Of a stretch of 64,000 nucleotides of DNA, positions 27,001-30,000 are shown piece after piece. The first letter of the stretch is position 1, and every line of letters begins with the position of its first letter. Origin of the DNA: Bdellovibrionales bacterium (GTDB lineage Bacteria > Bdellovibrionota > Bdellovibrionia > Bdellovibrionales > UBA1609); assembly GCA_027317865.1 (NCBI GenBank), contig DAHVQG010000002.1, positions 32,001-96,000 of the forward strand, written 5' to 3'. The position numbers are program-made.

Positions 27001-30000
27001 CATAGCTGAACCCGGTTTTTGATTTTCTGCCCAGTCACTTTGCGGATCACAGGTTTTATCGAGCCGGCCCAACAGGTCGACAACCTTCGAGTAGTGATTT
27101 AAATTCTCAGACGCGTTCATCATGTAGACGTAGGCCAGCGGCACAACTTCTGAGTGTGGCCGCTCTTCGATAAAATCACTCAATAGTGTGATGACGGACT
27201 TGTCACGACCGTGGCGTTTGTAAAGCTCCGCCAGTCGCATGATTACGGGACCAACAGGCAAATCTCCGGCTTCGCGCGATAGGTAAGCATAGGCACCGCT
27301 AGGCGGGCGCGCTCCCTCATAAAACAAAGCTAAATCAAAAAGCGCTTCGCGCCGCAAATCAAGCCGTGCATCAATATGATGTTTTTCAACATAAACGCCG
27401 TATTTAATTACCGCTTCAAGTTCATGAATCGCGGACTTTGTATCGCGCAAGTTATAGTAGGCCCAAGCCGCTTTGTAGATACCATACGGGTATACCGTCG
27501 AATCAGGGAACTTTTTGATTGCCAAATAATGCTTAAGCGCGCCCGTAAAATCTTGCCGTTGAAAATCGATTTCACCTAAGGCAAGATGGGCATCCGGCAA
27601 CAGATCTGAATTTTGAAAATCGCTTACTAATTGCCTGTACAACCTCTCGGCTGTGCCATTGTCGCCGATTTGCTGGTAAGAAAATGCGTCGTTGAACATA
27701 ACAAGGTCGAGGCGGCCATAATTTGGAAATTTATGTATTATTAAATTATAAACGTGAATCGCTTGCTCAAGCCGCCGTTTGGAATTGGCCGTCTTCACAA
27801 TTTCCGGCACGAAACGAACAATATTTTTTGAATCGCGATGCATTTCAAAAAACTGGTCCGCCTTCGAGCGCCGCACATAGAGTTCAGCGAGGCGAAAATC
27901 AAGTTCCGGTTCAAGCGCCGTACCACGATACTTCGCAATCAATCTTTTGATTTGCTGGATGGCCCTTCGTTCGGAATACTTGATCAGTAATTCCGCCTTC
28001 AGGGAGCGAATTTGGTTGCTCTTGTACTGACCTGGTTTCATTTGCAACGAATTCAACGGATTTTCGGGGACCGACCCGGCTAAACACGGCGACGCCGCAA
28101 CAACGCCTGCCAGAAAGGCCACCGCAACAAAGCAAAGATAAGAAGTCCGCCGCAATTCGTTCATAAAATCAAATTCATCCCGCCTTGGTAAAACTCTTTA
28201 AAAATTTTTGCGTTTCGTCGCTTAGCGATTTAAATTTCATCCCGTAGCGAATCGGCATGTTGCGATGACGTAAATCGCTTACGAACTCTTTACTCACAAC
28301 TTGGCAAACGGCGTTGAAAGGCGGCACACCGTCGCCGGGTTTAAAATGCAGATAAAGTTCTTGCCCCGGCAGAATCATTGCGTTCTCCATTACAACACCG
28401 GCACCGCCCTCGCTGATTTCAAGGGCCTTGCCCTTCCAAACCTTTTTGTTGTCGTGAACCAGAATTGTGCCGCCGTAAGCGACCCGCCGAAAGCGTCGGC
28501 GAAAAAACACATCGCTCAACTCAGGCATTGAATCTTTGAGTTTTTTCAATTCCTCTTTGCCGAAATCCGGCAGTTCGGCAATCCGCATCCAGGTATCCAG
28601 GGCCGCATGCCAGGCAAAATCAAATTCAAAAACCGCGCCCTGTTGAAGCATTTTTATAACGTCGATATAAGTAAACGGTCCGAATTTATTGTCGCCTTTC
28701 AAAATAAACCATTCATTGGGCCGCGAATCTTTTGATTGCTCCGGCTGCGGTTGCGACTCGGGCTGCGGCGTTATGTGCTCTTGCTGTTTCGGCGGCGCCT
28801 TTGGTTTTAACGACTTGATTTTTTCAGAAAGCTGCGGGTAATCGAGAAACAAAATCCAGTCGTTGTTTTCTTCGACGTAAATGTAATCGAGCGGCGAAAG
28901 CGTACTGTCCGCTACAAAATGTACAATCTCGTCAATCGAATATGGTCCCATTTGCTGGGATGAGTGCGAGACATAAAATTTTTCTTGCATGAGTTATTTT
29001 GCCTCCGACAGTTATCCGATCTATTTATCGGGATCTTTGCCACTTGGCTAAAGACTCATTCGTGTAACACACGAATGAAAAAGTTCGTTAAAACGTCGAA
29101 GTTTTTAACGGATCACGTTGAGAAATAGCGCTGGACAAAAGTATTATTATTTACTCATAACGGCGAATTTGACGTTGGCGTACCCAACGAGCATCGCGGT
29201 GTATAAAACCTTTTGAAGGGTCGAGTAAGGCAAATCTTTGTCGACCTCCATAAAAATTCGGCCGTTGAAGTTTACGGTGTTGTTAACCTTGGCTAGATTT
29301 TTGACCTGATCGGCCTTCTTATCGAGCGCATTGTATAACGATCGAATAAAAGAAGGATCGCGGGGGTCGATATCGCTTGCCGCAATTTGACCATTGTTGA
29401 TTGCGGCCACCTGCTTTCCGCCGACGAAAACTCCCTGCTTTGAAACAATAAGTTTCAGAGTGTCAATTGGATCAATCGAAGAAGTCGACGCCGGAAGACG
29501 CAACAATTTATTGGGCGTGATATTCACAGGGCTGGTGGAATAGCTTTTAAGAAGAAAAACAAGCAAGATGATGAACATATCCACCATCGAGGTAATTTGA
29601 ATTTTAAAACCCGAGCTGCGGTTATCGAGGTATCTTTTAAACCCGCCGTGTTTCATCGCCTAGCCTCCGACATTACCGAAAGTAACATTAGGAAACAGCT
29701 CATACGCGCTCGAATCAACGGGAATCGGCGTGTCGCCGAACGATGCTTTCGCCTGTGGTCGCGGCCGCTCGCGAACTTCGTCCATGATGTGGACAAGGTC
29801 GTTAAATGCCACGTCGCCTTGAGGCATAAGTTGAAGTTGCGTTACTTTTGGGTGTTCCTTTTTTATTGCAATCGCGGACGACAAAAGCCCTTTTAAATCG
29901 AAGTGGCCGTTCTTGTTGGCGATAGCCATCCGTTGCACGCGACCCGAAGGTGACGTGACTTCAAAGACAAACCCATGCGCCTTCGAAATTTGAAGCGATA

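What a model noticed while it worked through the whole genome (the two positions that open the first line are those of the whole stretch)
28175..28990. Tandem-GYF/PilZ proteins embedded in two gliding-motor gene clusters
Two paralogous GYF-GYF-PilZ proteins (C22:60175-60990 and C22:2729-3442) with intact c-di-GMP motifs lie in or beside two ExbB/ExbD/ExbD plus TPR/FHA (Agl-Glt-type) motor clusters, and this placement is conserved. They are candidate c-di-GMP switches of the gliding motors.
Evidence so far: Pfam GYF_2 + PilZ; RxxxR and [D/E/T]xSxxG present here and in 11 of 14 relatives' copies. Orthologs in 25 of 31 and 20 of 25 genomes; next to ExbB/ExbD genes in 6 of 7 and 6 of 7 loci. Paper searches 195 and 198 returned nothing.
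(Added by a program. Inside this text positions count along the whole contig: contig position 32,001 is position 1 of the stretch shown here. "Call 12" and the like, gene names such as g00115 and contig names such as C1 are that model's own, and its searches are not shown. The text may have been shortened before it was handed on; [...] marks where a part breaks off. The agent that wrote the report below was given it as the finding of a first reader that could run no searches.)

Follow-up and report, generated by a model that had tools for sequence, protein, structure and literature searches.

The report
GYF–PilZ adaptor of Bdellovibrio gliding motors
This predatory-bacterium gene belongs to a family already proposed in 2012 to relay a cyclic-nucleotide signal to the gliding machinery; the new lead is that its two small binding domains may grip a proline-rich tail on the motor protein encoded beside it.

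Summary
The gene is real: a 271-aa GYF-GYF-PilZ inside a complete Agl-Glt-type cluster of a Bdellovibrionales genome. The core idea is not new. Hobley 2012 named Bd1482, the PilZ gene of this same operon type in B. bacteriovorus, a candidate c-di-GMP receiver for gliding, and PilZ is a listed GYF architecture theme. The closest HD100 protein is Bd3100 (41%); the Bd1482-type gene holds the locus. The motifs are not fully canonical: E or T replaces D/N. Gliding needs cGAMP, not c-di-GMP, from Bd0367. The second paralog faces its cluster convergently and is unlinked in 6 of 6 loci of HD100's family.

New here: a third GYF-PilZ at a third cluster. The GYF domains match GltJ's, and no GltJ N-terminus was found in this genome. 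This cluster's AglR alone has a conserved cytoplasmic proline-rich tail, usually lost where the neighbouring GYF decays. Best reading: a nucleotide-gated adaptor docking on AglR (0.42). Binding is untested.

The parts
28175..28990 (-). GYF-GYF-PilZ gene (P0001, 271 aa, no predicted TM segment); family of B. bacteriovorus Bd3100 (closest) and Bd1482 (same locus)
28829..28975 (-). GYF domain 1 (less conserved; absent from Bd1482-type copies)
28790..28807 (-). Conserved internal K-P-x-x-P-P motif (residues 62-67) between the GYF domains; possible internal GYF ligand
   Evidence: K62 99%, P63 100%, P67 99% of 120 homologues; motif in 100 of 120 A-type against 13 of 120 Bd3100-like proteins
28562..28711 (-). 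GYF domain 2 (most conserved, W-x-x-L-K-G-x-N-K-F-G-P hairpin); only PDB sequence hit is the GltJ GYF domain 7z3c
28187..28501 (-). PilZ domain with RxxxR (R165-R169, window 28484-28498) and E-x-S-x-x-G (E191-G196, window 28403-28420)
30213..30935 (-). AglR-like motor subunit (MotA/TolQ/ExbB family), Bd1481 type
30216..30251 (-). Proline-rich C-terminal tail of AglR (residues 229-240), after the last of three predicted TM helices and so cytoplasmic by ExbB/TolQ topology (recalled); proposed GYF ligand
   Evidence: P232 invariant and P233 >=90% in 25 sequences
29660..30262 (-). AglQ-like ExbD/TolR subunit (true start probably downstream of the listed one)
29147..29656 (-). AglS-like ExbD/TolR subunit
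25096..28164 (-). 1022-aa TPR protein (GltD/AglU-like, Bd1478 position); starts 10 bases after the PilZ stop codon
24176..25099 (-). 307-aa TPR protein (GltE-like)
   Evidence: NF033758 E 4.7e-8, below cut-off and not the top hit
23913..24179 (-). 88-aa GltF/CglF-like protein
   Evidence: NF033764 E 1.3e-8, below cut-off
22369..23898 (-). 509-aa FHA-TM-TonB-C protein (GltG-like)
   Evidence: NF033760 E 7.5e-50, below cut-off; NF033768 above cut-off
21438..22319 (-). Outer-membrane beta-barrel (GltA/B-like position)
   Evidence: TIGR04565 E 4.7e-15
18869..21421 (-). 850-aa TPR protein (GltC-like)
   Evidence: NF033756 E 9e-36, below cut-off
18170..18856 (-). 228-aa conserved coiled-coil-like protein closing the cluster

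Best explanation
P0001 is a soluble cytoplasmic adaptor of the cluster-A (Bd1473-1483-type) Agl-Glt proton motor. SHOWN: architecture, placement, co-distribution with this motor, and a conserved Pro-rich tail found on this motor's AglR. INFERRED: its GYF domains, chiefly GYF2, grip the Pro-rich C-terminal tails of the AglR ring, as GltJ's GYF grips AglZ's proline-rich sequence in Myxococcus; tandem GYFs could hold two tails. The internal K-P-x-x-P-P linker may compete as an internal ligand. A cyclic dinucleotide bound by the PilZ domain (c-di-GMP by default, cGAMP possible) would move the GYF2-PilZ hinge and so engage or release the motor, like a YcgR/MotI-type clutch on a MotA-family stator. 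It would supply the cytoplasmic control point that GltJ supplies in myxobacteria. Rough odds by step: works with this Agl-Glt system 0.8; binds a cyclic dinucleotide 0.65; GYF binds the AglR tail 0.4-0.5.
For: Within 1.5 kb of a cluster-A gene in 43 of 53 named loci. In 151 genomes, A-type GYF-PilZ and AglR-A: both 108, PilZ only 12, AglR only 6, neither 25 (from; kin are not independent). After the duplication in HD100's family a GYF-PilZ still sits directly before aglR in 10 of 10 such loci that I fetched. A third GYF-PilZ sits at a third cluster, in the same arrangement in 3 of 3 relatives as far as the flanks reach. The only PDB sequence hit of the family and of GYF2 is GltJ GYF (E 8.5e-4 and 0.015). 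That domain binds a proline-rich sequence at about 8 uM (PMC11135422). GltJ is reported absent from Bdellovibrio (PMC3169522), and in this genome the GltJ model matches only the C-terminal TonB-like part. AglR-A has PP or PxP in its last 18 residues in 30 of 31 rows and 26 of the 30 top-scoring loci, against 0 of 24 B-type, 0 of 25 C5-type and 1 of 4 C3-type AglR rows; 24 of 1992 ORFs of the genome have a similar C-terminal Pro cluster. All 6 genomes with AglR-A but no strong A-type PilZ have lost the tail. In 46 paired loci: tail with the [KR]G hairpin of GYF2 35, tail without 3, no tail with 1, no tail without 7 (three rows corrected by eye). RxxxR, S193 and G196 are 99-100% conserved.
Against: No binding has been measured. 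The D/N position is E, S or T in the gliding-linked clades A, Bd1482 and B. Gliding depends on cGAMP from Bd0367, with an effect on transcription of bd1480, which needs no motor-bound receptor. PlpA has both motifs yet is reported not to bind c-di-GMP. Five near-complete genomes keep an A-type GYF-PilZ with no AglR-A found. The tail/GYF pattern rests on about five independent tail losses, of which only three are clear: one keeps KG, and one has KW like two tail-bearing loci. The six AglR-only genomes form one clade. The hairpin test was defined after seeing the data, 20 loci were picked by me to look for losses, and general fast evolution could erode both features. In 17 of 43 linked loci no motor gene lies within 3 kb, so the tighter link is to the GltD-like gene. 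In HD100 Bd1481 rises 2.7-6.7-fold in host-independent growth while Bd1482 stays near 0.8 (PMC2797640 supplement). B-type AglR has no tail, so the model needs another ligand there.
Confidence: 0.42

Rival explanations
1. Nucleotide-blind adaptor: the protein works at the Agl-Glt machine as a GYF scaffold, and the PilZ domain is a protein-binding module, as for M. xanthus PlpA.
For: Second motif non-canonical in clades A, B and Bd1482, with the B position drifting among seven residues; PlpA precedent, and PixA's c-di-GMP binding was dispensable for motility.
Against: R165, R169, S193 and G196 are 99-100% conserved in 120 homologues; RxxxR is kept in 118 of 120 Bd1482-like and 119 of 120 Bd3100-like proteins. 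PixB binds c-di-GMP despite an altered second motif.
Confidence: 0.2
2. cGAMP receptor: these PilZ domains read 3'3'-cGAMP rather than c-di-GMP and are the missing protein link between the Hypr cyclase Bd0367 and gliding.
For: cGAMP, not c-di-GMP, is required for gliding. The genome encodes GGDEF proteins with Ser at the Hypr specificity position (C33:171052, C38:153269, also C11:147078; context read from the primers). No c-di-GMP-I (GEMM-I) riboswitch was found in it. Bd1482-like proteins have S at the D/N position in 117 of 120, echoing the D-to-S switch of Hypr cyclases (analogy only).
Against: The window clade has E, which should still read guanine (inference). The third paralog has canonical D. 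Three of 12 non-GYF PilZ matches in the genome also have T, S or E, and 7 have D/N, so the change is not specific to gliding. The known cGAMP effect is on transcription.
Confidence: 0.15
3. The target is not the motor. The protein controls export or display of the vWA/MIDAS lipoprotein adhesin, or a polar signalling hub, and sits here because it travels with the adhesin and GltD genes.
For: A vWA-like gene lies directly after the PilZ gene in 12 of 53 named loci and stays with it when both leave the cluster (L029, L033, L048, L059, L063, L064, L066; bd3099 beside bd3100). Copies persist in genomes without AglR-A.
Against: In this genome the vWA gene is unlinked (C42:74890). The adhesin and GltD have signal peptides while the PilZ protein is cytoplasmic, so direct contact is unlikely (inference). 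Three genomes keep the vWA gene before aglR with no PilZ gene at the locus (L167-L169).
Confidence: 0.13
4. The cluster-A machine is not a gliding motor but a related Agl-Glt device for another envelope task (prey contact, transport, secretion); the adaptor role could still hold.
For: All Glt family hits are below curated cut-offs. Luciano 2011 favours Bd0828-0838 as the gliding set and says duplicate clusters gained new functions. A 2026 review says some could be transporters. The genome has five such clusters.
Against: bd1480 and bd3099 are induced on surfaces and depend on Bd0367; the full AglRQS plus GltC-G-like set is present.
Confidence: 0.15

Closest known systems
B. bacteriovorus Bd1482 (PilZ gene of the Bd1473-1483 gliding operon; Hobley 2012, PMC3271064)
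   Same: Same operon type and gene order; already proposed as the c-di-GMP receiver for gliding. The HD100 protein taken as Bd1482 (P0128, CAE79366.1) is GYF+PilZ, 28% identical over 180 aa. The Bd number is inferred from position before aglR (Bd1481), not read from a record.
   Different: One GYF only, no linker motif, S-x-S-x-N-G second motif. The GYF domain was not mentioned in the passages read; no binding or mutant data found.
B. bacteriovorus Bd3100 (Q6MIQ1, P0383)
   Same: Closest HD100 protein: GYF-GYF-PilZ, 41% identical over 269 aa, E-x-S-x-G-G motif; beside the vWA gliding gene bd3099.
   Different: Outside the motor cluster (9 loci of this type); mostly lacks the K-P-x-x-P-P linker. 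A single clade of Bd1482-like and Bd3100-like copies is not rejected but not shown (AU p 0.15).
B. bacteriovorus Bd1996
   Same: Inferred ortholog of the B paralog: 25-30% identical copies lie beside an FMN reductase gene, as Bd1996 lies beside Bd1997.
   Different: Assignment by neighbourhood only; not beside a motor cluster in that family.
Myxococcus xanthus GltJ (AgmX) cytoplasmic switch (Attia 2024, PMC11135422; PDB 7z3c)
   Same: Homologous GYF domain acting at an Agl-Glt motor by binding a proline-rich sequence.
   Different: GltJ is a membrane protein with ZnR, TM helix and TonB-C and is switched by MglA-GTP; P0001 is soluble, has tandem GYF and a PilZ domain. The supplement lists PilZ among GYF architecture themes; figures S3 and S4 themselves could not be seen.
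PilZ motor brakes and clutches YcgR, MotI/DgrA, FlgZ
   Same: PilZ fold (MotI Z 13.9, YcgR Z 11.9) with an N-terminal partner domain; target would be a MotA/TolQ-family stator (their mechanism is recalled).
   Different: N-terminal domain is GYF, not PilZN; motif has E for D/N; the motor is not flagellar. HD100's YcgR-like brakes are Bd0760 and Bd1007.
M. xanthus PlpA, PixA, PixB (Kuzmich 2021, PMC8316039)
   Same: PilZ proteins that affect gliding.
   Different: No GYF mentioned (0 occurrences); they act on reversals and polarity; PlpA is reported not to bind c-di-GMP.

Membership tests
c-di-GMP-binding PilZ receptor | PilZ beta-barrel fold | tested here: met
   PF07238 49.6 bits over cut-off 22.5; Z 13.9 to MotI
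c-di-GMP-binding PilZ receptor | RxxxR motif | tested here: met
   R165 and R169 in 100% of 120 homologues
c-di-GMP-binding PilZ receptor | [D/N]xSxxG motif (consensus recalled) | tested here: not met
   E191-x-S193-x-x-G196; E in 99% of 120. S and G are kept; whether E serves is unknown
c-di-GMP-binding PilZ receptor | Specific binding of c-di-GMP | not testable with these tools
   Rotem 2016, which may hold capture data, was not available
Bacterial GYF (GYF_2/DUF4339) adaptor | GYF_2 profile match and fold | tested here: met
   Two matches over cut-off; 7z3c is the only PDB sequence hit
Bacterial GYF (GYF_2/DUF4339) adaptor | Binds a proline-rich sequence | not testable with these tools
   Only indirect co-variation with the AglR tail
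GltJ (NF033761) | ZnR-GYF-TM-TonB-C membrane protein above the family cut-off | tested here: not met
   No NCBIfam hit for P0001; no TM segment; works-like claim only
Agl-Glt cluster (for the surrounding genes) | AglR, Q, S plus GltC, D, E, F, G and OM barrels | tested here: met
   Best hits GltC, GltG, CglF, OMP_myx_plus, all below equivalog cut-offs; GltD and GltE by TPR content and position
Agl-Glt cluster (for the surrounding genes) | Drives gliding | not testable with these tools
   Literature calls these putative gliding operons
Bd1482/Bd3100 family | Homology and position relative to named HD100 proteins | tested here: met
   41% to Q6MIQ1, 28% to CAE79366.1; gene order

The most novel reading that the evidence does not exclude
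Bdellovibrionales replaced the MglA-switched GltJ of myxobacteria with soluble GYF-PilZ adaptors, one tuned to each of several Agl-Glt motors. These clamp the Pro-rich cytoplasmic tails of the AglR ring (or the G-x-P-K-P-x-x-P-P linker of GltG in cluster B) and are switched by 3'3'-cGAMP. That would be a PilZ-type cGAMP receptor and a direct second-messenger clutch on a TolQR-type gliding motor, explaining why Bd0367's cGAMP is needed for prey exit.
Probability: 0.12. Interest if true: 0.85.

Novelty: new variant of a known kind. Interest (0 to 1): 0.45.

Why it matters
How cGAMP or c-di-GMP turns on Bdellovibrio gliding, which the predator needs to leave spent prey, has no identified receptor in the passages and discussion that I read. 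The 2012 candidate Bd1482 occurs in 1 paper of the library. This analysis names the full paralog set to delete together (Bd1482, Bd3100, Bd1996), explains why a single deletion could be masked, and proposes a short peptide ligand. That turns an old guess into cheap binding and deletion tests in a laboratory strain. Without those tests it is an extension of a published proposal.

Tried and rejected
Complex prediction of the P0001 alignment with AglR residues 198-240: no verdict, score 0.00 in two runs, mark 0.32, partner fold uncertain; not used as evidence either way. Promoter and terminator scan of 27900-31400: counts at chance level (3 found against 4.6 expected; 5 against 4.9). Plasmid collection: no match. 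ESM Atlas only returns GYF_2/PilZ clusters from Bdellovibrionota. Rotem 2016 was not held. Earlier findings of the scan were not open. Literature searches: Bdellovibrio+PilZ+gliding, Bd1482 (16), GYF/gliding/GltJ (17), proteome (24), Bd3100 (41), six Bd numbers (52), PilZ/DUF4339/GYF (57; 25 of 89 listed, none relevant), PlpA (62), cGAMP+PilZ+Hypr (100; listings only) and AglR/proline-rich/GYF/Bdellovibrio (116; 3 papers, one not opened). None of the listings or passages that I saw describes an AglR tail-GYF link; subscription papers are not covered. Rejected: 'P0001 is simply Bd1482' (it is closer to Bd3100). Rejected: 'non-canonical D/N marks gliding PilZ proteins'. Rejected: 'Pro tails are general to AglR'. 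The 93-row careful tree did not finish; the quick tree was used, with long branches. The Fisher p is not quoted because kin are not independent and three rows were mis-scored by the pattern. Outside the order only 1 of about 100 phylum genomes scored better than 1e-40.
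Full report
1. The observation. Window 28175-28990 (-) encodes a 271-aa protein, P0001. 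Pfam gives GYF_2 twice and PilZ at 164-268. AlphaFold2 on a 45-row alignment gives two GYF folds, a low-confidence linker at 72-86 and a PilZ barrel (mean pLDDT 89). The best structural matches are PilZ receptors. Homologues are from Bdellovibrionales. The gene lies on one strand in the order ExbB, ExbD, ExbD, [GYF-GYF-PilZ], TPR 1022 aa, TPR 307 aa, 88 aa, FHA 509 aa, OM barrel, TPR 850 aa, 228 aa. NCBIfam's best hits for four of these are GltC, GltG, CglF and a myxobacterial OM barrel, all under their cut-offs. This is an Agl-Glt-type cluster (cluster A). The second gene (C22:2729-3442, P0122) is also GYF-GYF-PilZ, 21% identical. It lies on the opposite strand after the end of a second cluster (B), with a 105-aa ORF between.

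2. Corrections. RxxxR is invariant, but the second motif is E-x-S-x-x-G in 99% of 120 homologues. In the B clade D/N occurs in 1 of 48 rows. The usual consensus D/N is recalled. The B gene is beside aglS in 25 of 30 top loci but beside lptC in 26 of 30, and away from any cluster in 6 of 6 loci of HD100's family; its link may be gene-order inertia. The genome holds a third GYF-PilZ (C11:258857-259522, one GYF, canonical D). It overlaps the start of a 1266-aa TPR gene and diverges from a third cluster. It was found in 4 of 151 genomes, with the same neighbours as far as the flanks reach. Two further clusters (C3, C5) have no GYF or PilZ match nearby.

3. Conservation. A-type proteins occur in 120 of 151 order genomes at E<=1e-40. 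Of 53 named loci, 43 have a cluster-A gene within 1.5 kb on the same strand, 8 are unlinked and 2 are too short; a motor gene is within 3 kb in 26. The commonest order is PilZ, aglR, aglQ, aglS, gltD-like. Against AglR-A: both 108, PilZ only 12, AglR only 6, neither 25. Kin are not independent. Five near-complete 'PilZ only' genomes were rechecked and have no A-type AglR.

4. Prior art. In HD100, Bd1481 is AglR and Bd1478 is AglU (PMC12546842 supplement rows), and bd1480 is aglQ (PMC9140294 passages). This is cluster A's order. Hobley 2012 wrote that Bd1482, at the 5' end of a gliding operon, encodes a PilZ protein that may receive c-di-GMP from DgcA (PMC3271064 passages). In the family that holds B. 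bacteriovorus the gene is duplicated. A single-GYF copy stands directly before aglR in 10 of 10 loci fetched, and its HD100 member is CAE79366.1; calling it Bd1482 is my inference from position. The tandem-GYF copy lies elsewhere and its HD100 member is Q6MIQ1 = Bd3100, 41% identical to P0001 against 28% for the single-GYF copy. One origin of both copies within that family is not rejected (AU p 0.15, quick tree, 41 rows). The B paralog matches Bd1996 by neighbourhood. Attia 2024 lists PilZ among GYF architecture themes (supplement legend; the figures are pictures and were not seen). Lowry 2022 showed that gliding needs cGAMP from Bd0367, since the c-di-GMP-only S214D mutant does not glide, and saw lower bd1480 and bd3099 transcripts (passages and first part of the Discussion). 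PlpA of M. xanthus has both motifs but is reported not to bind c-di-GMP (PMC8316039 passages).

5. What is new here. (a) The only solved-structure sequence hit of the family alignment, and of GYF2 alone, is the GltJ GYF domain 7z3c (E 8.5e-4 and 0.015). That domain binds AglZ's proline-rich sequence and is needed for optimal focal-adhesion assembly (PMC11135422 parts 1-2 of 9). Bdellovibrio is reported to lack GltJ (PMC3169522 passages); here the GltJ model matches only TonB-like C-termini. (b) Cluster A's AglR ends in a Pro-rich tail behind its last TM helix (window 30216-30251). P232 is invariant in 25 sequences although the stretch before it is variable. PP or PxP lies in the last 18 residues in 30 of 31 rows and 26 of 30 top-scoring loci. 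Controls: 0 of 24 B-type, 0 of 25 C5-type and 1 of 4 C3-type rows, the one being this genome's own. (c) All 6 genomes with AglR-A but no strong A-type PilZ have lost the tail; three have no PilZ gene at the locus and three a decayed single-GYF copy. These six form one clade. Over 46 paired loci: tail and [KR]G hairpin 35, tail only 3, hairpin only 1, neither 7 (with L012, L023 and L164 corrected). This is about five independent tail losses, three of them clearly matched by GYF change. I chose 20 loci to look for losses and defined the hairpin afterwards, so this is a lead and not a test. (d) P0001 carries its own conserved K-P-x-x-P-P, and cluster B's GltG has a similar G-x-P-K-P-x-x-P motif after its first FHA domain in 9 rows printed, a candidate ligand for the B paralog.

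6. Mechanism. I propose a soluble adaptor whose GYF domains grip AglR tails and whose PilZ domain gates that grip through a cyclic dinucleotide (0.42). Architecture, placement and the tail are shown; both binding steps are inferred. Against it: non-canonical motif, the cGAMP and transcription result, persistence without AglR-A, tighter linkage to gltD than to the motor genes, and lack of co-induction of Bd1482 with Bd1481 in host-independent growth (0.78-0.79 against 2.7-6.7; PMC2797640 supplement rows). Bd1482 has no row in the proteome supplements searched. Rivals are a nucleotide-blind adaptor (0.2), a cGAMP receptor (0.15), control of the vWA adhesin or another target (0.13), and a non-gliding role of the cluster (0.15, compatible with the adaptor role). 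For cGAMP: the genome has Hypr-type cyclases and no GEMM-I riboswitch was found (150 of 319 candidates scored), but 3 of 12 unrelated PilZ matches also lack D/N.

7. Papers seen. Passages only: PMC3271064, PMC13689555, PMC6717892, PMC3169522, PMC8316039, PMC11761067, PMC11323537, bioRxiv 10.64898/2026.06.08.730854. Passages plus supplement rows: PMC2797640, PMC12546842. PMC9140294: passages and first part of the Discussion. PMC11135422: parts 1-2 of 9, passages, and part 1 of 2 of the supplement text. Not seen: Rotem 2016, Sathyamoorthy 2021, Pogue 2018 (known only through PMC8316039) and PilZ surveys outside the library; any of these may hold binding data or list the architecture.

8. Verdict. 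Real and conserved, but the headline idea dates from 2012 and the architecture is listed. The additions (paralog map, GltJ-type GYF, AglR tail) sharpen it into direct tests. New variant of a known kind; interest 0.45.

Noticed in passing
G000:C11:258857-259522 (L125:6858-7523, - strand): Third GYF-PilZ gene with canonical D motif, overlapping a 1266-aa TPR gene and divergent from a third Agl-Glt-type cluster that begins with an OmpL47-type multi-barrel gene; found in 4 of 151 genomes.
   Followed up: partly
window 34034-35797 (-): 587-aa protein with an N-terminus that looks GYF-like by eye (no profile hit), a predicted TM segment and TPRs, 3 kb upstream of cluster A.
   Followed up: partly
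window 41584-42642 (-): Degenerate GGDEF protein (no GGDEF motif, RxxD-like site) behind a histidine-kinase-like gene; resembles a CdgA-type receptor (recalled comparison).
   Followed up: no
G000:C33:171052-171993, C38:153269-154411, C11:147078-148052: Three GGDEF proteins with Ser at the Hypr specificity position, two with an N-terminal receiver domain, where HD100 has one known.
   Followed up: partly
G000:C6:18350-20038 and C9:21294-24107: Other GYF proteins: a tandem-GYF, Pro-rich, probably membrane-anchored 562-aa protein and a 937-aa protein with one weak GYF; possible GltJ-like stand-ins, not beside a motor cluster where checked (C6).
   Followed up: no
L059:7588-8568, L056:15264-16331, L071:7292-8269; G000:C42:74890-76044: A vWA/MIDAS-like lipoprotein gene travels with the GYF-PilZ gene in many relatives (bd3099 and bd1483 positions) but is unlinked in this genome.
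   Followed up: partly
G000:C3:32585-41777 and C5:52378-66957: Two further Agl-Glt-type clusters, five in all in a 2.65-Mb genome; the C3 AglR type was found in only 4 of 101 genomes.
   Followed up: partly
L052:9084-9797 (-): A GYF protein with a poly-Pro linker and a different C-terminal domain lies head to head with the GYF-GYF-PilZ gene in one relative.
   Followed up: no
L002-L004, L024, L055-L062 (cluster A relatives): Cluster order is shuffled between lineages (motor genes before, after, divergent from or far from the PilZ gene), and the GltD-like and GltE-like genes appear fused into one 1220-1270-aa gene in HD100's family and a few others.
   Followed up: no
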